This document shows positions 3,138 to 18,188 of a DNA stretch of 18,188 nucleotides, in pieces (the stretch's first letter is position 1; the number at the start of each line of letters is the position of its first letter). The translations under genes were made by a program, and so were the position numbers. Source of the DNA: a virus (Duplodnaviria; Heunggongvirae; Uroviricota; Caudoviricetes). Under the pieces are notes generated by a model. It had not been told where the DNA came from and ran no database searches. It saw only the letters and a list, made by a program, of their open reading frames with translations. The DNA lies in IMG/VR virus record IMGVR_UViG_2671181094_000006; one strand, given 5' to 3'.

Positions 3138-3563
3138 TTAATGAACTTCCGGCATCACAGGCCATTCAATATCTGGGGCATCATCAGGGTTAACACGACT
3201 GAGCAGAACGGAGTATTTTTCCCAGTGTTCCAGTCGCGTTTTTTCATCCAAGGTAGCCATTCCGTATTTCACAGCACGCGCTAAAGGGACGATAACGTCC
3301 TCAGCCTTTGTACGTTGCCGCTCTTTTTCAGCCCCAGCCAGCCTGGATAACTGTGCTTTGGTCTGTGGAGGTACATCGACCCACGAGGGCAAGCCATCAG
3401 CCCCTACCCCCCTTTGCTTACCTTCTGGTGGAACCCTGGTGAACTCGTGAAAAACGTTATCACTGACTGCTATAAGGTCCGCTGGTAGAGAATTGTTGTC
3501 CCGATAAGCTGGTAATAATTCATCAGGGTAAAAACACGCCGTTGACGCACTAAAATGATACAT
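3138..3563 (-). CDS. tail fibre assembly protein (Tfa-like chaperone)
   Basis: Start MYHFSASTACFYPDE and C-terminus HWEKYSVLLSRVNPDDAPDIEWPVMPEV match the conserved ends of phage Tfa chaperones (...W.KYR.LL.RVD...APDIEWP..P). Its ATG at 3563 follows the upstream TAG at 3566-3568 closely. Confidence 0.7.
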   Translation of the reverse strand: MYHFSASTACFYPDELLPAYRDNNSLPADLIAVSDNVFHEFTRVPPEGKQRGVGADGLPSWVDVPPQTKAQLSRLAGAEKERQRTKAEDVIVPLARAVKYGMATLDEKTRLEHWEKYSVLLSRVNPDDAPDIEWPVMPEVH

Positions 3564-3565
3564 GA

Positions 3566-4099
3566 CTATTCCCCTATAGCTAACCATCCAAAATTATCTG
3601 CATTACCCGAACTGCCGCTGATCCAGCCATATGCACGGAAACCGGAATTGGAATCATTGGTTACGGACACGTAACGATTTCCATCTGCGTACTTCGTAGC
3701 AACAATAGCAATAGCCCGCTTAGGAAAAGGTATCGGATACTGAACATTACCTGATGGTGAATTAATAGTGGCAGTTCCCATTTGAACAATAATATTTTTC
3801 TTTTCACCTGATGGTGTTCGGGTAGGAATAATACAGTAACCCTGTGAAGTAAGGGCACCTACGATGGGTTCAGATAGAAGGGCGGTGATCCTCAACTCAT
3901 CAATAACTTCGTTTAACTGACCATCATTTTCAGGCTCAAGCTGGCGGCCAGAACCCTCTACCACGCCCACCATCTCACGCTGCCAGGTATTAAAAATATC
4001 GGCAACAAGAATTGTTGGTGATACCCCATTAGCAACATTACCTTGTGTAAATTCCCCATTACTATCAGCAGTATCAGTGACTGAACTTATCTTACGCAT
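3566..4099 (-). CDS. tail-fibre-tip-like protein (177 aa), too short for a full fibre
   Basis: Directly upstream of and coupled to tfa, which is the usual fibre-chaperone arrangement. The C-terminal half is Gly/Ser/Asn-rich and looks beta-rich (...GWISGSSGNADNFGWLAIGE). The call is mainly positional. Confidence 0.45.
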   Translation of the reverse strand: MRKISSVTDTADSNGEFTQGNVANGVSPTILVADIFNTWQREMVGVVEGSGRQLEPENDGQLNEVIDELRITALLSEPIVGALTSQGYCIIPTRTPSGEKKNIIVQMGTATINSPSGNVQYPIPFPKRAIAIVATKYADGNRYVSVTNDSNSGFRAYGWISGSSGNADNFGWLAIGE

Positions 4100-5929: not shown

Positions 5930-6289
5930 ATGAGAATGACCAGCCGCAAAAAAGAGATACTCAGCTACTTTGAACCGGATAACCGCGATTGGGTAACAGG
6001 TGAGATTGGTGCGCCGCCGTTCGATGTGTCGGGTGTGGCCTACCTGCTTCATGGCATGGGATCATTCGGTAAACGCCACCAGCTCGAATCAACCCGGCGT
6101 ACGCTCGAAAGCATGGTTGCCGGTGGACTGCTTGAGCGAATGACAGTGTATGAATCCCGTCAGGTACGGCGCGGCGGTGAAACCAGCGCAACAGTCGTGC
6201 GCTACGGTTTACCGGGACAGTGTGCCGTTGTGCGAGATAGTGGCGGCGCTGATAACGCAATACCAGGTGAATACATGCGGGTCAGTTAA
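5930..6289 (+). CDS. conserved hypothetical protein, paralog B1 (119 aa)
   Basis: Full-length similarity to the 1548-1907 product; about 80% nucleotide identity over the first 130 nt by eye. Confidence 0.7.
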   Translation: MRMTSRKKEILSYFEPDNRDWVTGEIGAPPFDVSGVAYLLHGMGSFGKRHQLESTRRTLESMVAGGLLERMTVYESRQVRRGGETSATVVRYGLPGQCAVVRDSGGADNAIPGEYMRVS

Positions 6290-6824
6290 GAGCCTGCAAT
6301 CTGTCGTTGATGCGGCTCAGGTCGTAAACCCGGCGTTCAATATCCAGCATCAGGAAATTGTGGATCTCGGCCTGCTCAGGATTATCAGACTCTCTGGCCT
6401 GTAATAGCAATTCATTGTATCCATGCAAGCCGCCTGAGTTTTCCGCCGGGGTGGTGCCTTTCCCACGCAGGCAGCTAATGGGCTGATTACTCGTATCGTG
6501 TGTTTGCTTCTCCAGCACAATGACGCAATCCCACCAGTCGCCAAAGTCATACGTGTAAACCAGCTTGTCACCCTCATTCTGGAGCGCTGCCCATAGTGGT
6601 GTGATTGCCGCGTTACCCATGCTTTCACCCTCACCCCATACGCGATACTCGCTACCTAGATCACCTTTACGGCCTTTCTCGAACATATACAGATGTTCGT
6701 CATTCCAGCCAAAAGCCAACTGGATCACCGCGTGAAGTTCACTAAAGGGGATTTGCTCTGGAACCAGCACACGCCGCCATATTGGTGGTTTGCTGTCTCG
6801 GATGGTTATCTTTAGCTGGTACAT
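6282..6824 (-). CDS. pRiA4b ORF-3-like family protein (start taken at MYQLKITIRDSKPPIWRR)
   Basis: The N-terminal signature YQLKITIRDSKPPIWRRVLVP...LHAVIQLAFGWNDEHLYMF matches my recollection of the PRiA4b ORF-3-like domain. AGGA-containing RBS upstream of ATG 6824. Stop overlaps the B1 stop by 8 nt. Confidence 0.6.
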   Translation of the reverse strand: MYQLKITIRDSKPPIWRRVLVPEQIPFSELHAVIQLAFGWNDEHLYMFEKGRKGDLGSEYRVWGEGESMGNAAITPLWAALQNEGDKLVYTYDFGDWWDCVIVLEKQTHDTSNQPISCLRGKGTTPAENSGGLHGYNELLLQARESDNPEQAEIHNFLMLDIERRVYDLSRINDRLQALN

Positions 6825-6944
6825 GCAAATCCTGAATAAATGCGAATCGGAAGGATAACGATACTGACGCACTCACAATTCTGTAAAGGTGAATAAAGGT
6901 AATTTGCTTAATACGCATAAGTTACATGTGGAATAATCCCATAT

Positions 6945-9567: not shown

Positions 9568-12345
9568 TTATTGCTCTGGCTGGCTTTCCTCCCCATCCGG
9601 CAGGAATTGCAAAACGTAAACGTTAATCTGCCTCCCCTGAATGCGCGGGCTTTTCCTCTGAAATTTTTTTCCGTCTGCCGAAGGGGTAAGCATCCCCGAT
9701 TCTTTCAGGACGCGGGCCACCTGCTGCCTGTTAAACCCCTTAGCAATATCCTTATCGAAAGTGTCGGGGAACGTGTAAAACGTTATCGGTGAATCGTCAT
9801 GATTTCCGCGCTGCCTGTATCCAGCCAGATTATGAATCGGCAGGCTGGCGGGGTCGTAAGGCAGCGGCGCGAATCGACTCAGGCCATAGGCATTTAAAAA
9901 TGCCTCCGCCTGCTCGATGATCTGCTGGTGCTCTTTGTTCCCCGTGCCGAACTCTTTTAGCCATGCGTTATAGGCGTGCTGTATCGCATCCCGGCACGTT
10001 TGAGCATCCCAGCCAGTAACCACGCCACCCATCAGTAAAGCGGCCTCCAGAATGGCAAATCTTGCCCCTACACGGTGAACCTGTTCCCCATAGTCGGCAG
10101 GAATTAGACTGCGCCAGCGGGCCTCACACTCACGAACGGCATCAATCGCCTGTTGCTGGTGGTCTGAAAGCCATCTGATCCACTCCCTCCCGGCAGCGCC
10201 ATGATGGTTCTGGTAAGCGTCTTTCAGCGCGTCGGCGTGGTCTCTCCCTGTCTGGTACTCATGAAAGCGCACCGCCTTACTCAGCGGGATATTCAGCAGT
10301 CGCACCAGTTGCCCCGCTTTTGTCTTGCGTCCTGCGGTGGAGATGAACGTTTCTAAATCCATTTCCCCGGTGCTGATTGCCACGGTGCGCCAGCGTTTCA
10401 GATCCCGGTTGCCTCCTTCCTTTGCTCCCTGCAATTTCCCCACGCCGTTAAACAGGGCATAGGCAGACTGAGCAACGCTTATCGGGTCTGCGCCCTGTCC
10501 GACTTCATCCAGTGGCATCAGCCCGTCATTGTGGGCGGCGGCCTCGTTTATCAGCCCCAGCGCCGTTCCGTACCACGTCAGGCGCAAGGCATCAGGGTTG
10601 CCATAAAGACTGCTCGCCACGTTCTGCGTGGTTGTTTTCCCGGCGCTCGATTGCTCGTAAAAATGAATCCCGAAGCCGTCACGCTCCGCCAGCCCGATTA
10701 ACGGTGCTGCAAGTGCGGCGGCAATGCCTGTCATCATCGCGTAGTTACCGTATGCCAGACGCGCAACACTCTTACGCCAGCTCTCTGAGGTTCCCGCCAC
10801 GGTGTACCCGGCAGCGGCAGAACTGCGGCCACTGAATAAAACGGGTTGTGCAGGTGCGCCGATAATCTCCCCGTCCGGCATGATGTATGCCCCGCACTGC
10901 CAGCCAGTAGCGTGAGCAACACGCCACAATTCACGTGAGCCGCTACGCTGTAACCAGTCAGCCAGAATCGCCCGCAAGCTGCTTTTGGTGGTGACGTTAA
11001 CCCCGCCCGCTTTCAGGGTGCGCCAGCCTTCGCGCTCCCCGATATCAGCCAGGGGGATAGCCGCTGTTGTCGGTATGCCTGCGCCAAAGGCCAGCCAGCG
11101 TAATATCAGATACTGATCCTTGTCGTCCCGCCCGGTGCCGATAACGTCCATCGGTGAGGCCAGCCAGCTTTCATTGTTGATAATCTCGCCGCTTTCCTTG
11201 TCCACTTTAGGCGTGATCCAGTAAACGCCATCTTTGCGGCTCTCAATGCGGGGTTTTAGCGGGTCTTTCTCTGGCTGGTCAGTTTTACCGCCCTCAATGG
11301 CCTGTAGTTGTGGTTTCACGCATTCCCCCTGCGGCTGGTACATCGAATCATTAAACGCAGCCGTAGCGACTTCCAGCCCGTGTTGCTGGTGGTAGTCGTT
11401 CCAGTCAGCTTTGCTGTCAGTCGGTGGCAGCGATACCCAGCCAGCCACGGATAAAGCCGCTTTCTCTGCGGCCTCCTTCCCGATGTTGGTGGCTCCGGTT
11501 TCGGAGGCTGCTGTAGGGTGGTCGTTATCTGCGGCGATAATAATTTGCGACTGCGGGTGTTTCCGGCGCATTACTCCGGCAACGTGGATCAGGTTCCCGG
11601 CGTCAATTGCCGCCACTGTGAGCGCGTCAGGCCGCATCTGGTGAACGGACAGGGCGGTAGCCAGCCCCTCGGCAATCACGACGCTTTGAGGCCGTTCCAG
11701 CGCGTTTACGGCGTAATATGCCCCGCGCTTTGCCGATCCCTTAATGAGTCGCTTTTCTCCCTGCGGGGTGATGGTCTGCGCGGCTGTGACTGCGCCGGAT
11801 TCATCCACCAGCTCCAGCAATAACGAACCATCGGGCATAAGCGGGTATTTAAACCCGGTCAGCCCTTTTGATTGCAGGTACTCAGATTCTCCCTGTATGG
11901 ATCTCAGGCGCATTCCGGTATACAGACGGGCAAACGTAGCCCTTCGCTGATCTGCGTCCTCTGCTGCCTGTTTCTGGCGCTCCTGCTCACGCTGCTGGCG
12001 GTCTGCGGCTAACTGCCTCTGTCTCTGGCTGGCAGCGTCTGGTGCTGATTCTGCGGCCCGGTAATCAATACCCAGCACATCAGCGGCAAGCTGTGCCGCC
12101 TCCGTGGTGTCGCAGTTGTTCACCTTCTTAATCAGGTCTAAGCCATCGCCCGCGCCGCACTGGTTGCAGATAAAGCTGCCGCGCCCGTTGTCGTCGAATC
12201 TGAAACGGTCTTTCCCACCACATGCAGGGCAGGGGGCATGGCGGCGCGATGAATCAGGAACGTCGATAGACAATCCGGCCAGCACATAAGGCCATCGCCC
12301 TGCTGCGGCGCTGGTCACTTCGCGGATAAGGTCGATATTACGCAT
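9568..12345 (-). CDS. primase-helicase (P4 alpha-like: N-terminal zinc ribbon, TOPRIM primase, C-terminal P-loop NTPase)
   Basis: 925 aa. Zinc ribbon CPACGGKDRFRF...CNQCG, TOPRIM acidic motifs (VVIAEGLATALS ... IIIAADND), Walker A-like SSAGKTT. GGGAGG RBS upstream of ATG 12345. Confidence 0.9.
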   Translation of the reverse strand: MRNIDLIREVTSAAAGRWPYVLAGLSIDVPDSSRRHAPCPACGGKDRFRFDDNGRGSFICNQCGAGDGLDLIKKVNNCDTTEAAQLAADVLGIDYRAAESAPDAASQRQRQLAADRQQREQERQKQAAEDADQRRATFARLYTGMRLRSIQGESEYLQSKGLTGFKYPLMPDGSLLLELVDESGAVTAAQTITPQGEKRLIKGSAKRGAYYAVNALERPQSVVIAEGLATALSVHQMRPDALTVAAIDAGNLIHVAGVMRRKHPQSQIIIAADNDHPTAASETGATNIGKEAAEKAALSVAGWVSLPPTDSKADWNDYHQQHGLEVATAAFNDSMYQPQGECVKPQLQAIEGGKTDQPEKDPLKPRIESRKDGVYWITPKVDKESGEIINNESWLASPMDVIGTGRDDKDQYLILRWLAFGAGIPTTAAIPLADIGEREGWRTLKAGGVNVTTKSSLRAILADWLQRSGSRELWRVAHATGWQCGAYIMPDGEIIGAPAQPVLFSGRSSAAAGYTVAGTSESWRKSVARLAYGNYAMMTGIAAALAAPLIGLAERDGFGIHFYEQSSAGKTTTQNVASSLYGNPDALRLTWYGTALGLINEAAAHNDGLMPLDEVGQGADPISVAQSAYALFNGVGKLQGAKEGGNRDLKRWRTVAISTGEMDLETFISTAGRKTKAGQLVRLLNIPLSKAVRFHEYQTGRDHADALKDAYQNHHGAAGREWIRWLSDHQQQAIDAVRECEARWRSLIPADYGEQVHRVGARFAILEAALLMGGVVTGWDAQTCRDAIQHAYNAWLKEFGTGNKEHQQIIEQAEAFLNAYGLSRFAPLPYDPASLPIHNLAGYRQRGNHDDSPITFYTFPDTFDKDIAKGFNRQQVARVLKESGMLTPSADGKKFQRKSPRIQGRQINVYVLQFLPDGEESQPEQ

Positions 12346-12359
12346 TCGTGTTACCTCCC

Positions 12360-12986
12360 TCAGTGCGCCGCTGGCATTTCAGGCAAGCCGTTTTCATTCA
12401 GATCGGCAATGAATCCATCGTGTAGCTCTGCCAGCGTTTCACGCCCGAACGGGGTCAATTCCCCGCGCTCCGTGTCGATCATGGCCTGATAAAAAACAAT
12501 GGCGTTCGCTGTTCCCTGCTCAATGCCGTAGCGCTCAATCATTGCGCCCTCCATGTTGTTAGCCATCGCCAGACGTTCCGCGAACGGGTAAACCACAATC
12601 CCCGCCGTGCCATTTGAATAAAACGTCACCAGCGACGATTTGCCGTCATCCTCCGTGATGGTGGTTGTGCCGTTTTCGCGCTTCATCTCAGAAATGAACG
12701 TCGCAGCAATCAGCCAGCGCCACATAGTGACGTTATGCTGCGCGGTAAAGTCGAACCAGCCACGCGCCCCGCCATCAGCAACGGCAAAATGTATGGCGTA
12801 TCCGATATCTGGCTTGTCGTCGTACTCTCCGGCGTCAAGGCCGTTCACGGCGCTCTCGTAGCTGATAAGAGCAACCAGCTCAAATCCCCCGGCATCATTG
12901 CGGGTCATGATATTGACGCCGTGCGGTGTGGCTTCGGCGCGTAATACGTCGTCATTTCCCGGTGTGAATTTCTCTACGTTGCTCAT
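12360..12986 (-). CDS. hypothetical protein (208 aa), last gene of the small-gene operon upstream of the primase
   Basis: ATG overlaps the upstream stop as ATGA. No motif recognised. Confidence 0.6.
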   Translation of the reverse strand: MSNVEKFTPGNDDVLRAEATPHGVNIMTRNDAGGFELVALISYESAVNGLDAGEYDDKPDIGYAIHFAVADGGARGWFDFTAQHNVTMWRWLIAATFISEMKRENGTTTITEDDGKSSLVTFYSNGTAGIVVYPFAERLAMANNMEGAMIERYGIEQGTANAIVFYQAMIDTERGELTPFGRETLAELHDGFIADLNENGLPEMPAAH

Positions 12987-13195
12987 GCTTTGCCGTCCAG
13001 ACTCAAATCCATATCAACTAACTCGCCTTCTACTGAATCCATCAGCTCGGGGATACCATCCAGAAGGGTAATGACTGCGCCAATAAGATGATCCGTGCCG
13101 CTATCTTTTTTAATCGGTGCTTCAAGCCAAAGAGAAAGAACTTGCTGCGCTTGCTTGATACGGCAGGCTGAATCAATCAGGGATAACTTGCTCAT
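12983..13195 (-). CDS. hypothetical protein (70 aa)
   Basis: Translationally coupled (ATGA overlaps at both ends). Confidence 0.55.
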   Translation of the reverse strand: MSKLSLIDSACRIKQAQQVLSLWLEAPIKKDSGTDHLIGAVITLLDGIPELMDSVEGELVDMDLSLDGKA

Positions 13196-13452
13196 GCGCT
13201 GCCCTCCCGATACTCGCGCATCTTCGTTAGTTCATCAGCCAGGCGATTAACTTTGCGCTCGGTTCTAATGGTTGCGCATCTCAATTCGGTGATTAATGTC
13301 GCAAGTCTGGCACCATAAAGCGGATTGGCGGCACGTAATGGCCCGTCCAGATAAAGATTCCATAACTCAAGCAATTCACTGGCATAGCGCACCGCTGCCG
13401 TTGCGTCACCTGTCGGGATTGTTTCTGGTTCAATTACGGCGACTGTATTCAT
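13192..13452 (-). CDS. hypothetical protein (86 aa)
   Basis: Translationally coupled (start/stop overlaps). Confidence 0.55.
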   Translation of the reverse strand: MNTVAVIEPETIPTGDATAAVRYASELLELWNLYLDGPLRAANPLYGARLATLITELRCATIRTERKVNRLADELTKMREYREGSA

Positions 13453-13712
13453 GCGCTGCCCTCCGCATCAATACGGGCTATATCGACAATCGCCAGGACT
13501 TTATCCAGCCAGCAATGCACGATGGCCGCCTGCTCATCGTCGAGGCGTGGTGCCAGCTCAGTCATAACGTAAGCCAGACCATTACGGGCGCGGGTCATGC
13601 GTTCCGCGGTACGCTCTGCCAGCGTAAAATCTTCCGGGTAGGGTTGTTCACGGGATAACATCGCCTCGGCCTGAAGCACTGCAGGATGGAGATAGATAGT
13701 GTGAATGTTCAC
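13449..13712 (-). CDS. hypothetical protein (87 aa, GTG start)
   Basis: GTG at 13712 overlaps the upstream stop as GTGA. AGGAGG lies 7 nt upstream. Confidence 0.55.
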   Translation of the reverse strand: MNIHTIYLHPAVLQAEAMLSREQPYPEDFTLAERTAERMTRARNGLAYVMTELAPRLDDEQAAIVHCWLDKVLAIVDIARIDAEGSA

Positions 13713-13888
13713 GCTGCCACCTCCTGAACACGGGTGATGCGAACGTGTTTATAACCGCCCTGCTGCGCCAATAACTGAGCGGTCGATTTGGCTGTATCCG
13801 GGCTGGCACCGGTCAGGGTGTAGTGAATGCCGACGGTGTTACCGCGCTTATTAACCGCGTATCCGTCAATCTGGAAGGTTTTACGCAT
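13709..13888 (-). CDS. hypothetical small protein (59 aa; start taken at MRKTFQIDGY, the ORF track extends further)
   Basis: GGAGGTG RBS lies 4-5 nt upstream of ATG 13888. The longer ORF-track start lacks an RBS. Confidence 0.55.
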   Translation of the reverse strand: MRKTFQIDGYAVNKRGNTVGIHYTLTGASPDTAKSTAQLLAQQGGYKHVRITRVQEVAA

Positions 13889-14084
13889 GACGCACCTCCG
13901 ACACCGGCAGGCGAGCAGCCAGAGAGAGGATAAAGTGCGGCGCCAAAATGCGGCGGGCGTCACGTTCGGTTGCGGCCTCGACGGACAGGCGGCAGGGAGT
14001 GGCCTTTTTGTCGTGACGGTTGAGCGCCAGAAAGCGCCAGATGTAGTTGTTCCGCCCTTGCGGGTGTGTGATATGATCGTTCAT
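13881..14084 (-). CDS. hypothetical small protein (67 aa, MNDHITHPQG...), first gene of the leftward operon
   Basis: This is the C-terminal 67 codons of the 391-aa track ORF 13881-15056. GAGG RBS upstream of ATG 14084. The rest of that long ORF crosses a promoter region, an opposite-strand gene and terminators. Confidence 0.5.
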   Translation of the reverse strand: MNDHITHPQGRNNYIWRFLALNRHDKKATPCRLSVEAATERDARRILAPHFILSLAARLPVSEVRHA

Positions 14085-14190
14085 AGCTGCCTCGTTATCT
14101 ACGCTAACGTTGGTGGTTAGAGGCCCGTTGGTGTTGTCGCACCTGCGGGCTTCGCTGTTTTTGTGCCTTACCTGTGCTTTAGCTGTGGAT

Positions 14191-14253
14191 AAGGTGTTTA
14201 AATACCTTATATCAAGGTGTTTAAATACGTCAAGCCAAAAGTATTTAAACACT
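14191..14253. promoter_or_regulatory. operator-like repeats: AAGGTGTTTAAATAC twice in direct orientation plus one inverted copy (GTATTTAAACAC), in a divergent promoter region
   Basis: Read directly. The repeat is centred on the palindrome TTTAAA. Lies between the leftward operon start (14084) and the rightward small gene (14317). Confidence 0.55.
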
Positions 14254-14316
14254 TCACAAATCTGTAGAGATGATTTATTTTCTCTAGTGTTAAAACACCA
14301 ACAGGAATCATCTTCA

Positions 14317-14520
14317 ATGGCTACAGGGCACAGAAACAACAAGTCTGCATACAAGGGAATCAGATTCCCATATGAATTGGTTGAGGAAATTGACGCCAGC
14401 GTAGAGCGAGAGAAAGCCGAAAACTCCGGGGCCAATTTCTCCGCATGGGTGCTGGATGCCTGCGGACGTAAGCTCAAATCAGAGCAGCGCAAAAAATCCA
14501 AAGCTGAGCCAGAGGCATGA
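14317..14520 (+). CDS. small putative DNA-binding regulator (67 aa, ribbon-helix-helix-like), candidate island repressor
   Basis: MATGHRNNKSAYKGIRFPYELVEEIDASVEREKAENSGANFSAWVLDACGRKL... The only plus-strand gene in this region, divergent from the replication operon across the operator repeats. The ORF-track N-terminal extension from 14110 looks non-coding. Confidence 0.5.
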   Translation: MATGHRNNKSAYKGIRFPYELVEEIDASVEREKAENSGANFSAWVLDACGRKLKSEQRKKSKAEPEA

Positions 14521-14662
14521 GTTATGCCTGACTCAACACGGTGTAAATGGCGAGACGCAATCGCTGTTGTTTTTTTAGTTGCAACTGCGTATTCCTCATA
14601 CTGGATAGTTAAGGCTATCGTGTCGCTAATCAGGTAACTGAGTTGGAAAAGCATAAAGCAGA

Positions 14663-14690
14663 GGGTAGGATTCGGAATCCTGCCCTTTTT
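14663..14690 (+). terminator. rho-independent terminator (8-bp stem GGGTAGGA/TCCTGCCC with one G-U pair, loop TTCGGAA, then TTTTT)
   Basis: Read directly, downstream of the 14317-14520 gene. Confidence 0.5.
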
Positions 14691-14807
14691 CCTCAAAGTG
14701 AGGACTGGTGGAATAATCAATGACTTAGGCACAAAGCGCCATTTTACGCTTTGCCATAAAAACAATGAGAAATCTACCAGAATGCAAATTTGCACTCTGT
14801 TCAGACT

Positions 14808-14894
14808 TTGACCATCAGCATTAACCCTGGTATGCTTAATCTGTTTCGGTTTTTCGTAGTGACATTGGCAGCTCTGCAAAGCTGCCTTTGTTTT
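14808..14894 (+). ncRNA. candidate short antisense RNA (about 50 nt) convergent on the 3' end of the Bro-N gene
   Basis: -35 TTGACC (14808-14813), 17-nt spacer, -10 TATGCT (14831-14836). Hairpin GGCAGC-N8-GCTGCC (14867-14886) followed by TTTGTTTT, which overlaps the Bro-N stop codon. Confidence 0.25.
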
Positions 14895-15510
14895 ATGCAT
14901 CATCTTCAACGCCCTCCAGCAATCCGGGTTGATACTTTCTCCATAATCCAATTTCTTCCATCTCAAGACGGGCTTTCTCTCCTTTGCACGCCTGTAGGTC
15001 GCTACCGCACTTACTGGCTTTCTTTGTGTACTGATCCTTGCGGCGACTGAAGTCATTTAGGAATGAGAACGGGACGCCGTATGAACCGGTTTTACGTATT
15101 GACGGGATTACTTCGCGGAACACCCAGTTTGTAAATCTGTGGGCAAACGAGCCTGTAGTAGAAGCTTTACGACTACGGGCAATCAGTTTATAAAAGCCTG
15201 ATTCTGCGGCCATATTCCAGCTACGTGCTCCACCACGTTTACCCGAATGACCCTCAGTTAAAGTTAGGGTCATTACCTCGTCGCCATCCAGAGAGGCAAC
15301 GGCACTGGTTGGATTGCTGATTTCCAGCGCCTGGCACACATCAGATACAACGAACCACGGCTCACCGAAAACATTCACGATCCTGACCGTGCGGCCTTCA
15401 AATTTAATTACTGAAATATCATTTTCACTTGCCGTGAAATTAGCCTTTTTGCTGGCTTCAGGGTGAGTCTTGCCGCTGCCAGTTAAGGCAGTAAATTTTT
15501 TCTGAGTCAT
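14893..15510 (-). CDS. Bro-N domain protein (phage antirepressor-like)
   Basis: N-terminal region FEGRTVRIVNVFGEPWFVVSDVCQALEISNPTSAVASLDGDE matches the Bro-N/antirepressor N-terminal signature. GGAG RBS upstream of ATG 15510. Confidence 0.75.
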   Translation of the reverse strand: MTQKKFTALTGSGKTHPEASKKANFTASENDISVIKFEGRTVRIVNVFGEPWFVVSDVCQALEISNPTSAVASLDGDEVMTLTLTEGHSGKRGGARSWNMAAESGFYKLIARSRKASTTGSFAHRFTNWVFREVIPSIRKTGSYGVPFSFLNDFSRRKDQYTKKASKCGSDLQACKGEKARLEMEEIGLWRKYQPGLLEGVEDDA

Positions 15511-15648
15511 TTCTATCGCTCCAAAAGTTGTTATTCAGAGCTGCCGCGACAGCGTTAGGTATGCTGCAATATTTCTAACGCAACACCACGCAACAAATTT
15601 TCTTTTCGCTGATCAGACGAAGTTGCGTGTGGTTGCATTGGCCTTGTG

Positions 15649-15933
15649 TTAGGCCGATTTACGGCTATATGGGTTATTGACGTTAGGTACAGCAGGGGGA
15701 TTACGAACCCACCAGAGCACATCGGACAAAAGCCAGGCGCAGCTATTGCGGCCAAAGTGGCAGCGCGGAGGAAAGCGGCCCTCTTGCTCCATCTTCCAAC
15801 GACTGGAGCGGGAAAGGCTTGTGATTTCGCCACATTCATCTTCACGAATCCGGCGATCAAACTTGAAGCCGTACTCCTCAAGAAGGTTACGGCGTTGTTC
15901 GGGGTTAGGTGGGGTAAAGATAATATTGTTCAT
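15649..15933 (-). CDS. alpA: AlpA-family phage transcriptional regulator (HTH)
   Basis: ...ITSLSRSSRWKMEQEGRFPPRCHFGRNSCAWLLSDVLWWVRN is typical of the AlpA HTH. Start taken at ATG 15933 with GGAGG 4 nt upstream; the ORF track extends to 15981. Confidence 0.75.
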   Translation of the reverse strand: MNNIIFTPPNPEQRRNLLEEYGFKFDRRIREDECGEITSLSRSSRWKMEQEGRFPPRCHFGRNSCAWLLSDVLWWVRNPPAVPNVNNPYSRKSA

Positions 15934-16029
15934 ACTGCCTCCACTGTTTCTAGGTTTGTGGAGGTTATTGTTATCAATCAAAAAGAACTTGTCTGAAATA
16001 TTCCGGAAAATTAACGGAATTTCCGCAGA

Positions 16030-16869
16030 TTACTCATCGACAGAGAAAGGGATATCAACATTATCAACCCATCCCTGAACAGCCCTTCCTGAGGGTGCCA
16101 CGATGTTAAGATTTTTAAAATCTTTGCTTATATCACTGTCATTTTTATCAAGAAATCGGCGCGGATTTTCTGCCACCTCGTTTCCATAATGAATGCGCAA
16201 AAGCGACTTTATAAACTGAGCACGTTTATTTATGGTTTTTGCTGAGTGAGCTTCATCGGGATTTTTTGACGGTTCTATCTTTTCTTTTTCACCATTAATA
16301 TAACTTGGAAATTCATCACCATCATTACATTTTTTAATTGAAACAAAATCAGATTTAGAAATATAGAGATCTTCAACCTCGAAATTAAGAAATTCATCCG
16401 TTTCAAAAGAAACAAACATCTTGCTTTCTGCCGAAAACCAAAAATCATCCAAGCTTGGTTGGAAACTGTAAAGTGCGGTCATTCCGTATGCATTTTGCGG
16501 TAAAGCCCATAATCCGCTAAATGAGCAGGGATAAAACCTTTCTTCGCGTGGGAGGTTATCTAAATCTATATCTTCATATCTCATTAATGAGACAACTCTG
16601 GAAAATTTATCGATGGTATATTTTTCTTTAAAAAGTTCATCTCTGAGACGTTGAGCAGATTCAAATTGTTCCTCTGTGAATCTCTTTAAATTCCTTTCTT
16701 CTTTTTCTACACCATCACCAATAAAACGGACATATCCGCGGCCTTCCTCAAAAGAAACATACAACTTGATTGCTCCAATCGAAGCCCAATGAAGCAAATC
16801 TTCAACTTTACATCCGAGCAACTCAGCAGCGCGAACTACTGAGTAATATTCCCGTAATGGCATTCCCAT
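16030..16869 (-). CDS. hypothetical protein (279 aa): N-terminal HTH-like segment fused to an acidic domain of unknown function; AT-rich orphan between int and alpA
   Basis: N-terminus YYSVVRAAELLGCKVEDLLHWASIGAIKLYV resembles MerR/excisionase-type HTH. GAGGGTG RBS 5 nt upstream of ATG 16869. The gene is visibly AT-rich compared with int and alpA. Palindromes TTCCGGAA and CGGAATTTCCG lie just downstream (15996-16028). Confidence 0.7.
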   Translation of the reverse strand: MGMPLREYYSVVRAAELLGCKVEDLLHWASIGAIKLYVSFEEGRGYVRFIGDGVEKEERNLKRFTEEQFESAQRLRDELFKEKYTIDKFSRVVSLMRYEDIDLDNLPREERFYPCSFSGLWALPQNAYGMTALYSFQPSLDDFWFSAESKMFVSFETDEFLNFEVEDLYISKSDFVSIKKCNDGDEFPSYINGEKEKIEPSKNPDEAHSAKTINKRAQFIKSLLRIHYGNEVAENPRRFLDKNDSDISKDFKNLNIVAPSGRAVQGWVDNVDIPFSVDE

Positions 16870-16961
16870 ATCGTCACCCTCAACGCCCCTAAATAACTTG
16901 CGGGCCAGGCGGGTAGGGTTTCCCGCTTTTCGGTTGGCCGACCTAGACCCGCAATATCAGT

Positions 16962-18188
16962 TTAATCTCTATTCGCTACAGGTAACAGAACCACATTTTT
17001 ATGATTACCCGCAAGAAGTTCTAAACGTTCATGCCATTTGTTCAGCGCATCCAGCTTCTCCGGCAAGTACAGGCTACGGTTATATATAGCCATGACGCCC
17101 GGTAGAGCATGACCCAGCAGCAACTCTACAATATGCGGTGCTATGCCCATATTGTTTAACCCCGTGGAGAACGTGCGCCGCAGATCGTGAAGTGTCCACG
17201 GCTCGTTATGATGGAAATCTTTAAAAAGCCGTCGCCCTTTCAAAGATACAGCTTGCCGGGTGCGCTCTTCTCCCAGCAGCAGGCCTGTTTTACCCGTCTC
17301 GCGTTTTAACTCTTCCAGCCACGGGCGTATAGCTTCAGGGATTGATCTCACGATTTTCTCGCGGGTTTTGCTGTGCTCTTTCGGGACTGTCCAAATCCAC
17401 GAGGTAAAATCCCACTCCGACCATCGAGAGAGGCGAACTTCCATCGTTCGAGCGCCAAACAGCACCAGCATTTTGAGAAGACGTGAATAATACGGCTGCT
17501 GATCATCGCTGTCTGTGCAGCGCCATACATCGGCCAGCTCGCTATCTGACAATACGCGGTCACGTTGACCGGATGGCTGGCCTACATCCTGAATGGTGAG
17601 AAAGGCTAGAGCATCACTGGCGGCATAGCGGCGAACCTTGCAGAAGCGTAACGCCTGTTTAGAAATCTGGAACATGCGGCCGGCGGTCATGGGTTTGGTC
17701 AGATTTATTTCATCAAAACAGGCCACCCAATGACGGGTTTCACATCTGGTGAGGGGATAACGACCAAGGCGCGGGTAAATATGCTTGCGTAGCTGTGCCC
17801 TTACCAGCTCCTCATCGCTGCGCTTTCTCCTGGCGTAGTTCACCAGCCAGTATTCGAGAGCATCCTGTACTGTCACAGGTTTAAGCGTTTCTTCGGTGCT
17901 CAGTTCAAGCTCTGTTTTTGGATCAAGACCACCAGCCAGCCACTGGCGACACTTTTCCCGCTTTTCTCTCGCCGCTTTTAGCGACAAATCCGGGTAACGG
18001 CCAAGCGTTAAACGTTCGAGTTTGCTACCCCTTCCGCCCAATCGGTAAGCGAACACCCAGCTAACGTTACCTTGCTTCGAAACCTTAATGCTCAGTCCTT
18101 CACCATCGGCAATCATGATCGGTGCTTCACGCTCAGAACCCTGCAGCGCTTTTAGCTTTTTGTCGCTCAGTTTGTTTGTACCAGCCAT
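16962..18188 (-). CDS. int: tyrosine recombinase, P4-type integrase (N-terminal arm-binding domain plus catalytic domain)
   Basis: 408 aa. N-terminal DGEGLSIKVSKQGNVSWVFAYR resembles the P4-family arm-binding motif. C-terminus has HDLRRTFST and LLGHA...AIYNRSLY (catalytic R, H-x-x-R, Y). The start codon sits exactly at the window edge, so the true N-terminus could lie beyond it. Confidence 0.9.
   Translation of the reverse strand: MAGTNKLSDKKLKALQGSEREAPIMIADGEGLSIKVSKQGNVSWVFAYRLGGRGSKLERLTLGRYPDLSLKAAREKREKCRQWLAGGLDPKTELELSTEETLKPVTVQDALEYWLVNYARRKRSDEELVRAQLRKHIYPRLGRYPLTRCETRHWVACFDEINLTKPMTAGRMFQISKQALRFCKVRRYAASDALAFLTIQDVGQPSGQRDRVLSDSELADVWRCTDSDDQQPYYSRLLKMLVLFGARTMEVRLSRWSEWDFTSWIWTVPKEHSKTREKIVRSIPEAIRPWLEELKRETGKTGLLLGEERTRQAVSLKGRRLFKDFHHNEPWTLHDLRRTFSTGLNNMGIAPHIVELLLGHALPGVMAIYNRSLYLPEKLDALNKWHERLELLAGNHKNVVLLPVANRD

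What the first reader, a model, noticed from the sequence alone, without database searches (positions are those of the whole stretch)
14893..15510. Bro-N antirepressor-like protein as a possible helper-derepression factor
The product has a clear Bro-N N-terminal domain, as found in phage antirepressors, and sits between alpA and the RHH regulator. Satellites such as P4 encode a factor (epsilon) that inactivates the helper repressor. A Bro-N protein could play that role here, or act as the island's own anti-repressor.
Basis: partly seen in the sequence, partly recalled or inferred. Interest (0 to 1): 0.5.

Follow-up and report, generated by a model that had tools for sequence, protein, structure and literature searches.

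The report
Swappable Bro-N gene of a phage satellite
The gene is a real Bro-N protein in the already described, exchangeable "Bro zone" of a PICI-type phage satellite; nothing here shows that it switches on a helper prophage, but its stop codon overlaps the start of a long phage-P4-like leader reading frame that leads into the satellite's replication genes.

Summary
ORF 14893-15510 (-) encodes a 205-aa protein with a full Bro-N domain (Pfam E 1.6e-15). It lies downstream of alpA and convergent to a YlcI/YnfO-type RHH gene.

The window is an EcCIMP1-like Gram-negative PICI satellite: int, alpA, DUF927 primase, SSB, PerC. "Bro-network gene after alpA" is a published general feature of these satellites (the Bro zone, PMC10111431), and I found no functional test of such a gene.

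The protein has a disordered leader, a KilA-N/APSES-like Bro-N fold and a family-specific C-terminal helical hairpin. It is basic (pI 9.2). It has no KilAC, P22_AR_C or P4-epsilon domain.

It behaves as a portable cassette. A near-identical backbone carries an AntA/AntB gene in the same slot, and a 95%-identical Bro sits in a different backbone. Its variable "wing" assorts independently of the RHH type. This points to a target outside the island and against an island-own anti-repressor.

Unexpected: the bro stop overlaps the start of a 340-codon ORF that ends in a homologue of P4 Kil/Icd. This holds in 35 of 56 loci and suggests a P4 vis-eta-like translational relay.

Helper derepression is neither shown nor excluded. 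Verdict: new member of a known kind.

The parts
14893..15510 (-). bro: 205-aa Bro-N protein. Disordered leader aa 1-21, Bro-N domain about aa 24-141, family-specific C-terminal helical hairpin aa 148-193.
15649..15933 (-). alpA (AlpA-family regulator/excisionase), upstream of bro on the same strand. The mechanical ORF extends to 15981.
   Evidence: Pfam Phage_AlpA E 4.3e-10; phrog_2790; 94-aa gene call in assemblies that carry the identical locus.
15577..15639 (-). Imperfect 18-nt inverted repeat (hairpin) in the 138-nt alpA-bro spacer. No promoter-like or terminator-like site was found on this strand in the spacer.
   Evidence: the repeat finder I2; RNA fold z -2.65; two compensatory double changes relative to L001; promoter/terminator scan.
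13881..14903 (-). eta-like long ORF (340 codons). Its ATG (14903, preceded by GGAGG at 14917-14913) overlaps the bro stop codon (14895-14893). It runs antisense through ylcI and through the operator array. Its last ~67 codons (13881-14084) are the Icd/Kil-like gene.
   Evidence: sequence; C-terminal 62 aa are 44% identical to the C-terminus of the P4 eta ORF, E 3e-11; the same arrangement in L001, L002, L004, L060 and in 35 of 56 family loci.
14317..14520 (+). YlcI/YnfO-family (DUF3950) small protein with an RHH-like sequence, convergent to bro and embedded antisense in the long ORF.
   Evidence: Pfam DUF3950; NCBIfam NF041551, 46 bits against cut-off 30; phrog_949; a homologue on the opposite strand downstream of bro in 32 family loci.
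14194..14298 (.). Operator-like array: four copies of the near-palindrome GTRTTTAAAYAC, around a + strand promoter-like site (14253-14281) in front of ylcI and upstream of the icd-like start.
   Evidence: the repeat finder D1/I3/I5; 11 matches against 1.2 expected, 0 of 200 shuffles reach 11; promoter scan.
14808..14896 (+). Candidate cis-antisense small RNA gene: promoter-like TTGACC-17-TATGCT (with TG) followed by an intrinsic terminator that abuts the bro stop. It would pair with codons ~3-20 of the long ORF.
   Evidence: promoter/terminator scan; the 87-nt block 14806-14892 is 98.9% identical in L002 although both flanks differ; a related terminator with compensatory stem changes in L053 and L054. 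No Rfam family.
16886..16953 (-). int-alpA RNA motif (Rfam RF02996) between int and orf279, at the head of the orf279-alpA-bro gene string.
   Evidence: cmscan 62.6 bits against gathering score 35.8, E 3.6e-11.
16962..18188 (-). Tyrosine integrase of the island.
   Evidence: Pfam Arm-DNA-bind_3, Phage_int_M, Phage_integrase.
9568..12345 (-). Primase-helicase (Zn-ribbon, Toprim_3, DUF927). This is the replication module that the alpA-bro-long-ORF string leads into.
   Evidence: Pfam; phrog_1139 E 8.8e-180; 78% identical to the EcCIMP1 primase.

Best explanation
bro is the exchangeable 'Bro-zone' gene of an EcCIMP1-like Gram-negative PICI satellite.

Shown:
- It encodes a basic two-module protein: a Bro-N domain with a KilA-N/APSES-type fold and a hypervariable beta-hairpin 'wing', followed by a family-specific helical hairpin.
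- It lies directly behind alpA on the same strand, with no promoter-like or terminator-like site found between them on that strand.
- It moves as a cassette between unrelated satellite backbones.
- Its stop codon overlaps the start codon of a ~340-codon leader ORF that ends in a P4 Kil/Icd homologue and leads into the replication genes.

Inferred:
(1) The gene is expressed only when the helper phage activates the alpA promoter.
(2) The protein is a sequence-specific nucleic-acid-binding regulator, probably dimerised through the C-terminal hairpin. Its target lies outside the island, most probably helper-phage DNA or transcripts, and it tunes phage gene expression for the satellite's benefit. 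The wing would set which phage is recognised.
(3) Apart from what the protein does, translation of bro feeds ribosomes by stop-start coupling into the leader ORF. This would keep induced transcripts from being terminated in the immunity leader, as translation of eta does in P4, and so link alpA activation to icd and primase expression.
For: Satellite identity: int, alpA, DUF927 primase, SSB and PerC are all co-oriented. The primase is 78%, PerC 87% and PRiA4_ORF3 98% identical to those of the experimentally mobilised PICI EcCIMP1. Published zone scheme Integration/Bro/Replication/Late: PMC10111431.

Family context: 37 of 56 loci have both an integrase upstream and a primase downstream on the same strand, and 48 have at least one. 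No sequenced phage has a homologue above 60% identity.

Variable wing: aa 60-101 have mean pairwise identity 0.41 against 0.83 for aa 102-141, with several discrete types.

Cassette behaviour: L001 has int 96%, alpA 92% and orf84/orf87 97-98% identical but an AntA/AntB gene in the slot. It shares only the 25-aa leader and the 3' flank. L004 has Bro 95% identical with a different integrase, HTH_17, a different RHH and a D5-type helicase. The identical Bro is joined to at least three different downstream modules. L060 has three stacked Bro-network genes. Wing type and RHH type assort independently.

[quoted passage not shown] In many loci alpA and bro are only 15-40 nt apart.

Coupling: SD GGAGG, then ATG 14903 overlapping the bro stop. 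35 of 56 loci have at least 200 open codons from the bro stop, and 31 of those have an ATG within -13..0 nt of it (21 as TAATG/TGATG). The other two frames carry 0.065 stops per codon. The C-terminus is homologous to P4 eta/Kil, E 3e-11. P4 mechanism as summarised in PMC10111431.

Precedents for regulator rather than antirepressor: the AriS N-domain, which alternates with Bro-N among AriS-like proteins, down-regulates its own phage's genes (PMC9043618). PLE CapR represses a helper gene.
Against: No target site or partner was identified, and DNA binding is inferred from fold and charge only. Some Bro-N/AntA-type phage proteins are reported as true antirepressors (N15 AntA, P1 Ant; from memory and secondary citations). 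The wing could equally recognise a protein. The conserved C-terminal hairpin could be an effector rather than a dimerisation module. The long ORF has a non-protein-like sequence and no direct evidence of translation. 21 of 56 loci lack it, so coupling is not universal in the family. The probability figure for ORF openness is post hoc and the loci are related. No strong intrinsic terminator was found on the - strand of the leader, so termination there would have to be Rho-dependent, which was not tested.
Confidence: 0.4

Rival explanations
1. Helper-derepression factor. Bro binds and inactivates the repressor of a resident helper prophage, as P4 epsilon does with the P2 C repressor, so that a satellite arriving in a lysogen induces its helper.
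For: All best PHROG families are annotated anti-repressor. The slot alternates with, or is stacked with, AntA/AntB, KilAC and Rha genes, as expected for a set of phage-specific modules. The hypervariable wing and independence from the island backbone fit an external, variable target such as phage repressors. The window has no epsilon homologue that would otherwise fill this role. N15 gp30 (AntA), 43% identical in the Bro-N part, belongs to an anti-immunity operon.
Against: There is no homology to P4 epsilon (PF25738) and no KilAC or P22_AR_C domain. The protein is basic with a DNA-binding-type fold. It lies upstream of the immunity leader in the helper-activated alpA unit, so in the integrated state it would be made only after the helper is already active; P4 epsilon lies downstream of the early promoter. 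Highly conserved parts of the protein (aa 102-141 at 0.83 mean pairwise identity; 65 invariant positions, 22 of them in the C-terminal module, in the 27-sequence alignment) are odd for a binder of very diverse repressors. AriS shows that the annotation is unreliable. I found no report of PICIs inducing helpers in this way.
Confidence: 0.2
2. Interference or exclusion factor. Bro acts against the helper on superinfection, or against competing phages, for example by binding and silencing their DNA, and so gives the host population immunity.
For: The related PICI EcCIMP1 confers superinfection immunity to its helper without any known defence system (PMC11773190). Satellites commonly carry anti-phage functions. 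Cassette exchange and a hypervariable surface are typical of arms-race genes.
Against: No PADLOC match. Expression would depend on alpA activation. No toxin or effector domain is present. The EcCIMP1 slot holds an AntA/AntB protein, not this family, and the gene responsible there is unknown.
Confidence: 0.15
3. The island's own anti-repressor. Bro inactivates the YlcI-like RHH protein, or competes at its operators, to open the icd-primase operon.
For: A YlcI-like gene lies convergent to bro in 32 of 56 loci. An operator-like array sits between ylcI and icd. This would give a neat helper -> AlpA -> Bro -> derepression cascade.
Against: The same wing type, and even 95-100% identical Bro, is paired with unrelated RHH types and different regulatory regions. 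The same RHH type is paired with at least five wing types. The near-identical backbone L001 uses an unrelated AntA/AntB protein in the slot. No repeat motif is shared among loci.
Confidence: 0.07
4. Translated spacer only. What matters is that some ORF is translated between alpA and the leader ORF, and the Bro protein itself has no role in the satellite cycle.
For: Unrelated genes occupy the slot while the 5' leader and the stop-start junction are kept.
Against: The protein is strongly conserved across Enterobacterales and Aeromonas: 65 invariant positions in the 27-sequence alignment and an intact domain structure. This implies selection on the protein.
Confidence: 0.05

Closest known systems
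'Bro zone' of Gram-negative PICIs and helper-embedded PICIs (PMC10111431, NAR Genom Bioinform 2023)
   Same: The position is the same: after int and alpA, before the replication module. It is occupied by domain-swapping Bro-network proteins (Bro-N, AntA, ANT/KilAC, Rha). The cassette exchange seen here is the dynamism that paper describes.
   Different: That paper gives no function for these proteins. It reports C4/isrK-type immunity RNAs in some Bro zones, and none is detected here. Going by its gene-content section and term searches of its text, it does not describe the stop-start coupling of the Bro gene to a long leader ORF ending in Icd, nor the antisense RHH gene.
Phage P4 left operon: vis (AlpA homologue) - eta/kil with the CI RNA immunity leader - epsilon - alpha
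   Same: Same order: AlpA-type gene, long non-protein-like leader ORF overlapping the end of the upstream gene, Kil/Icd-like C-terminus (44% identity, E 3e-11), then small genes and a primase. The logic of P4 (translation of eta prevents immunity-specific termination; Forti et al. 1999 as summarised in PMC10111431) is the model for the relay proposed here.
   Different: In P4 eta overlaps vis directly. Here a Bro-N gene is interposed. The P4 leader is Pfam Phage_ASH and encodes CI RNA/seqA. The window's leader has no Phage_ASH or Rfam hit and instead carries an RHH gene on the opposite strand. P4 epsilon (PF25738) has no homologue here. No match to Psu, Sid or Delta families.
EcCIMP1, a PICI of E. 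coli MP1 mobilised by phage Kapi1 (PMC11773190)
   Same: Closest experimentally studied element: primase 78%, PerC 87%, PRiA4_ORF3 98%, orf208 64% identical. Same order: int - HTH - 'antirepressor' - ash/Icd-like - primase.
   Different: A different integrase (26%) and integration site. The slot holds an AntA/AntB protein plus DUF4222, not this Bro family. The antirepressor was not tested in that study.
Listeria phage regulator AriS and AriS-like proteins (PMC9043618)
   Same: [quoted passage not shown] The proteins are annotated as antirepressors. The AntA/AntB N-domain of AriS regulates genes of its own phage.
   Different: [quoted passage not shown] The window protein has no KilAC domain but a short family-specific helical hairpin. 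Gram-positive prophage rather than satellite.
Phage antirepressors with Bro-N-related N-domains: N15 gp30 (AntA), phiKO2 gp27, P22 Ant
   Same: Bro-N part 43-46% identical to N15 and phiKO2. N15 antA lies in an operon with icd. Weak P22_AR_N similarity (12 bits).
   Different: The similarity stops at about aa 145, and the C-terminal modules differ. P22_AR_N is below threshold and P22_AR_C is absent. Those are phage genes; this family is found in satellites and not in sequenced phages above 60% identity.

Membership tests
Bro-N domain family (Pfam PF02498) | Match to the family HMM above the curated gathering score, over the whole model | tested here: met
   57.9 bits against 25.6, model positions 2-96 of 96, E 1.6e-15.
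Bro-N / KilA-N / APSES DNA-binding fold | Alpha/beta fold similar to KilA-N/APSES DNA-binding domains | tested here: met
Antirepressor (functional class) | Binds a phage repressor and relieves repression | not testable with these tools
   Only annotation by homology (PHROG names). Needs induction assays and interaction tests.
P1 Ant / AriS-type two-domain regulators | C-terminal ANT/KilAC domain (PF03374) | tested here: not met
   No hit at E <= 1. The C-terminus is a 2-helix hairpin found only in this family.
P22 Ant | P22_AR_N and P22_AR_C domains | tested here: not met
   P22_AR_N 12 bits against cut-off 30.7; no P22_AR_C.
P4 epsilon helper-derepression protein (Pfam PF25738 'Derepression') | Sequence membership in the epsilon family | tested here: not met
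   P4 epsilon hits PF25738 at 9.2e-51 as a positive control. Bro and the scanned small ORFs downstream of icd (13709-13963, 13449-13712, 13192-13452, 12983-13195) do not.
Gram-negative PICI 'Bro zone' gene | Bro-network gene between the int/alpA integration zone and the primase replication zone, co-oriented | tested here: met
   Gene order in the window. Same order in 37 of 56 family loci and in annotated E. coli islands.
Gram-negative PICI 'Bro zone' gene | Domain or cassette swapping between related islands | tested here: met
   Window against L001 (AntA/AntB) and L002 (KilAC), with shared flanks. The same Bro occurs in different backbones.
PICI-type phage satellite (whole island) | int, alpA and primase co-oriented, about 10-20 kb, without a full set of phage morphogenesis genes | tested here: met
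   Only a tail-fibre C-terminal fragment, a tail-fibre assembly gene and a weak TerS-like hit were found.
PICI-type phage satellite (whole island) | Induction and packaging by a helper phage | not testable with these tools
   Inferred from relatedness to EcCIMP1 (PMC11773190).
P4-like satellite | Psu, Sid, Delta, epsilon and alpha-type primase | tested here: not met
   No Pfam match to Psu/Sid/Delta/Derepression in the ORFs scanned. The primase is DUF927-type.
P4 eta/kil-type nested leader | Long ORF overlapping the end of the upstream gene and ending in a Kil/Icd homologue | tested here: met
P4 eta/kil-type nested leader | CI/C4-type immunity RNA and seqA target (Rfam C4, isrK); Phage_ASH leader | tested here: not met
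   No Rfam hit at E <= 1 in 13500-16200. No Phage_ASH hit for the long ORF, while P4 eta hits at 4.5e-23.

The most novel reading that the evidence does not exclude
These PICI-like satellites run a P4-style immunity switch rebuilt from different parts. In this reading a helper-activated alpA-bro message is carried through about 1 kb of leader by stop-start translational coupling (bro -> eta-like ORF -> icd). The leader is guarded by an antisense-encoded RHH protein, and in this lineage also by a ~50-nt cis-antisense RNA, in place of P4's CI RNA. Bro itself would be the exchangeable, helper-specific derepressor that lets the satellite wake a resident helper prophage on arrival. That would make helper induction by satellites, so far a P4 speciality, a general property of a large class of Gram-negative PICIs.
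Probability: 0.12. Interest if true: 0.65.

Novelty: new member of a known kind. Interest (0 to 1): 0.35.

Why it matters
Bro-network genes fill a fixed slot in thousands of Gram-negative satellites, yet in the literature I could search none has a tested function. How these satellites sense and manipulate their helpers, beyond "the helper activates alpA", is still open. This analysis narrows the question for one widespread family. The protein's target is outside the island. It is not an epsilon-type or KilAC-type protein. Its reading frame is physically coupled to a P4 eta-like leader. If the coupling is real, it gives a directly testable link between alpA activation and satellite replication. 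It would also explain why very different genes can be swapped into the slot as long as the two junctions are kept. It also flags an annotation problem: gene callers either call the 340-codon leader as a protein and miss ylcI and icd, or the reverse.

Tried and rejected
1. Solved structures by sequence: no Bro-N relative in the PDB. The TonB and eL30 hits at E 0.005-0.05 are noise.
2. C-terminal module alone: the search for homologous proteins returned only 5 fragments (uninformative). The exhaustive HMMER search found 12 representatives, the ten strongest of them short proteins or fragments. The module is therefore not shared with other Bro-network architectures.
3. Rfam search for P4 CI/C4/isrK-type immunity RNA in and around bro: nothing. 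The only sub-threshold hit is symR-like, 32 bits against 61.
4. PADLOC on bro, orf279 and late-region ORFs: no defence family, only a meaningless 16-bit mad1 hit.
5. Bro binding the operator array, or pairing with the RHH: rejected as a specific partnership because wing types, RHH types and upstream repeats assort independently.
6. Capture of the Bro-N domain from a sequenced helper phage: no phage record above 60% identity.
7. An antisense terminator abutting the bro stop as a general family feature: found in only 11 of 57 loci, so it is lineage-specific.
8. Primary papers on P4 eta (PMC94026), N15 antirepressors (PMC1951935) and Iyer et al. 2002 (PMC88810) are not held. These points rest on secondary summaries and memory.
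9. The island end beyond the integrase lies outside the window (it ends at the int start codon), so I did not look for att sites. There is no tRNA gene in the window.
Full report

Yes. The ORF 14893..15510 (- strand, ATG, 205 aa) is present as described, with a GGAG ribosome-binding site 8 nt upstream. Pfam Bro-N matches aa 42-136 over the full model at 57.9 bits against a cut-off of 25.6, E 1.6e-15. The only other hit, P22_AR_N, is far below threshold.

Upstream on the same strand is an AlpA-family gene. Downstream and convergent is a 67-aa YlcI/YnfO (DUF3950) protein with an RHH-like sequence at 14317-14520. The gene is intact and common: 676 homologues, the best 97% identical, in many Enterobacterales. 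The identical protein is indexed in 55 blocks of public assemblies.

**2. What is the element?**

The co-oriented genes are:
- tyrosine integrase, 16962-18188
- an unannotated low-GC ORF, 16030-16869
- alpA, then bro
- an Icd-like gene and several small ORFs
- a Zn-ribbon/Toprim/DUF927 primase, 9568-12345
- SSB, PerC and a PRiA4_ORF3 protein
- a tail-fibre C-terminal fragment with a tail-fibre assembly gene
- a weak TerS-like ORF

The next gene is hpt. No match to Psu, Sid, Delta or P4-epsilon families and no tRNA gene was found.

The primase (78%), PerC (87%), PRiA4_ORF3 (98%) and orf208 (64%) resemble those of EcCIMP1, a PICI shown experimentally to be mobilised by phage Kapi1 (PMC11773190). 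The window is therefore a PICI-type satellite.

The literature already describes a general four-zone plan for Gram-negative PICIs: Integration (int, AlpA), Bro, Replication and Late. [quoted passage not shown] A 2026 survey lists BRO, AntA/AntB and Rha "putative antirepressors" in Enterobacter PICIs (PMC13612085). In my literature searches I found no paper that tests one of these genes.

**3. The protein**

An AlphaFold2 model built on 27 family members (pLDDT 78, pTM 0.72) shows three parts:
- a disordered leader, aa 1-21
- an alpha/beta Bro-N domain, about aa 24-141
- two long C-terminal helices (148-166 and 172-193) that follow a third helix (122-141)

The C-terminal module has no Pfam or NCBIfam family. 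An exhaustive search of 1.84 billion representatives found only 12 matches, the ten strongest of them short proteins or fragments of this family. It is family-specific, not a shuffled domain.

The protein is basic (pI 9.2; the family mostly 8.3-9.9). The most conserved stretch, aa 102-141, has pI 11.5.

Across 53 family members the segment aa 60-101 is hypervariable: mean pairwise identity 0.41 against 0.83 for aa 102-141. In the model this segment is mainly a beta-hairpin with a low-confidence loop. It falls into several discrete types that do not follow host taxonomy.

**4. The family is a satellite gene and a portable cassette**

In one genome per species, 56 loci carry the family, from Enterobacterales and Aeromonas with two distant outliers. 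Of these, 37 have both an integrase 2-3 kb upstream and a primase 1.5-4 kb downstream on the same strand, and 48 have at least one. No sequenced phage carries a homologue above 60% identity. The best phage matches (N15 gp30/AntA, phiKO2) cover only the Bro-N part.

Three comparisons show cassette behaviour:
(a) The E. coli island L001 has int 96%, alpA 92% and orf84/orf87 97-98% identical to the window. Yet it holds a 270-aa AntA/AntB protein in the slot. The two genes share only the first ~25 codons (MTQKK.T.LTGSG.T.PE) and the DNA that starts at the stop codon. L002 holds an AntA/KilAC-type protein between the same 3' flank and an AlpA gene.
(b) A 95%-identical Bro lies in a Raoultella island with a different integrase, an HTH_17 excisionase, a different RHH type and a D5_N/DUF5906 helicase. 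The 100%-identical Bro is joined to at least three different downstream modules.
(c) An E. coli island carries Rha, AntA and this Bro family stacked in the slot.

A YlcI-like gene lies convergent to bro in 32 loci. Its sequence type, and the repeats in front of it, assort independently of the Bro wing type.

Together these results say that Bro does not co-evolve with any island component. Its target is most simply outside the island. This weakens the reading "island's own anti-repressor".

**5. The unexpected feature around the gene**

On the bro strand, an ATG at 14903 overlaps the bro stop codon (TAA 14895-14893). It is preceded by GGAGG with a 9-nt spacer, and a second ATG lies at 14900. 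This ATG opens a 340-codon reading frame that ends at 13881. The frame crosses the "intergenic" DNA, runs antisense through ylcI, and crosses a cluster of four GTRTTTAAAYAC operator-like sites.

Its last 62 residues are 44% identical (E 3e-11) to the C-terminus of the P4 eta ORF, that is, the Kil part. Related islands annotate this part as "Icd-like". The rest of the product looks non-protein-like.

The same arrangement holds in L001 (417 codons, ATGA overlap), L002 (269), L004 (359) and L060 (396), although the middle parts are unrelated.

Across the 56 family members analysed (55 loci plus the window):
- 35 have at least 200 open codons from the bro stop.
- 31 of those 35 have an ATG within -13..0 nt of the stop, 21 of them as TAATG/TGATG.
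- The other two frames of the same stretches carry 0.065 stops per codon, while 7,780 codons of this frame have none.

The naive probability (10^-228) is post hoc and the loci are related, but the excess is not subtle.

In P4 the AlpA homologue vis is overlapped by eta. Eta is a long leader ORF (Pfam Phage_ASH) that contains the CI immunity RNA and ends in kil. According to PMC10111431, summarising Forti et al. [quoted passage not shown]

The window has the same layout, with two differences. A Bro-N gene is interposed between alpA and the leader. The leader carries no C4/isrK-type RNA but has an RHH gene on the opposite strand.

In this lineage there is also an 87-nt block, 14806-14892, that is 98.9% identical in L002 although both flanks differ. 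It holds a + strand promoter-like site (TTGACC-17-TATGCT with TG) and a + strand intrinsic terminator that abuts the bro stop. It is a candidate ~50-nt antisense RNA over codons 3-20 of the leader ORF. Related terminators with compensatory stem changes occur in L053 and L054, but only 11 of 57 loci have such a terminator.

**6. How it most likely works**

Shown: the domain structure, the basic charge, the position, the cassette exchange, the independence from island modules, and the stop-start overlap with a conserved open leader ORF ending in a Kil/Icd homologue.

Inferred: bro is made only in the helper-activated state. No promoter-like or terminator-like site was found on its strand between alpA and bro, and in many loci the gap is 15-40 nt. 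The protein would be a nucleic-acid-binding regulator whose wing sets specificity for a phage target. Its translation would also load ribosomes onto the leader ORF and so carry induced transcription into icd and the primase operon. I put about 0.4 on this composite. The coupling part is stronger, about 0.6; the DNA-binding regulator part is weaker, about 0.35-0.4.

**7.

Helper derepression remains possible (about 0.2). The slot is filled by proteins of antirepressor-annotated families. The target is external and variable. The island has no epsilon homologue.

Against it:
- No relation to epsilon, KilAC or P22_AR_C.
- A basic, DNA-binding-type protein.
- Strong conservation of much of the protein, whereas phage repressors are very diverse.
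- Its place upstream of the immunity leader in the late, helper-activated unit. P4 epsilon sits behind the early promoter.
- The AriS precedent. [quoted passage not shown]

An exclusion role (about 0.15) is suggested by the unexplained superinfection immunity of EcCIMP1. There is no PADLOC match.

**8. Novelty and score**

The finding as written is a correct but ordinary annotation: a new member of a known kind (a Bro-zone gene of a Gram-negative PICI), with a reasonable but unsupported functional guess.

What adds some interest is the conserved coupling of the slot to a P4 eta-like leader, with a protein-coding antisense gene and possibly an antisense RNA in place of CI RNA. As far as I could find, this is not described for PICIs, and it is directly testable. 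Interest 0.35.

Noticed in passing
window 13881-14903 (-): A 340-codon ORF starts at the bro stop codon (SD GGAGG, then ATG 14903). It runs antisense through ylcI and ends as the Icd/Kil-like gene, whose C-terminus is 44% identical to P4 eta. It is conserved as an open frame in 35 of 56 family loci, mostly with TAATG/TGATG stop-start overlap. It looks like a P4 vis-eta type translational relay.
   Followed up: partly
window 14806-14896 (+): A promoter-like site (TTGACC-17-TATGCT, TG) plus an intrinsic terminator that abuts the bro stop: a candidate ~50-nt cis-antisense RNA over the start of the long ORF. The 87-nt block is 98.9% identical in L002 although both flanks differ. No Rfam family matches. 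Only 11 of 57 loci have such a terminator.
   Followed up: partly
window 14194-14298: Four clustered copies of the near-palindrome GTRTTTAAAYAC (11 matches in the window against 1.2 expected) around the ylcI promoter-like site, in the divergent ylcI/icd region. The binding protein is unknown. The motif is not shared with other family loci.
   Followed up: partly
window 16886-16953 (-): A full-length match to the Rfam int-alpA RNA motif (RF02996, 62.6 bits), lying between int and orf279 rather than directly before alpA. It may mark the start of the orf279-alpA-bro transcription unit.
   Followed up: no
window 15577-15639: An 18-nt imperfect inverted repeat with a conserved 27-nt loop in the alpA-bro spacer. 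Two compensatory double changes relative to E. coli island L001 keep the pairing. There is no U-tract, so it is not a classical terminator. It is absent from loci where alpA and bro are adjacent.
   Followed up: partly
window 16030-16869 (-): A 279-aa ORF between int and alpA with markedly low GC (0.33-0.37 against about 0.5 around it). It has no hit in Pfam, PHROGs, NCBIfam or PADLOC. Related islands carry DUF6387 or other genes here. It is probably accessory cargo in a known hotspot.
   Followed up: no
window 14085-14156 (+): A sub-threshold SymR-like Rfam hit (32 bits against 61, E 0.0013) with a terminator-like hairpin, on the strand opposite the icd-like gene just upstream of its start codon. 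It could be a second antisense RNA or chance.
   Followed up: no
L061, L064, L065 (public assemblies with the identical locus); L001, L002, L060 (RefSeq): Annotation conflict. Some gene callers call the 340-aa leader ORF as a protein and omit ylcI and icd. PGAP calls ylcI and a short Icd-like gene and omits the long ORF.
   Followed up: partly
L066 (phage P4) 8168-8812 (-): The Pfam family Phage_ASH ('Ash protein family') matches aa 37-161 of the P4 eta ORF. This is the translation of the immunity leader that holds the CI RNA region, so hits to this family mark eta-like leaders rather than a conventional protein.
   Followed up: partly
L006-L012, L017-L028 and others, about 420-450 bp immediately upstream of bro: In many family loci the gene before bro is not alpA. 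It is an unannotated protein of about 140 aa with a conserved C-terminal half (..ERIDEPNPDGIGSHYRYRF..V..LVN..GGY.GLS...I..ILSLYPD) and no Pfam hit. It may be an alternative regulator of these satellites.
   Followed up: no
window 3138-4099 (-) and 6282-6872 (-): The late region carries a 177-aa tail-fibre C-terminal fragment (Gp53-like_C) with a lambda gpK-type tail-fibre assembly gene. It also carries a PRiA4_ORF3 protein 98% identical to that of EcCIMP1. This may be host-range cargo of the satellite.
   Followed up: no
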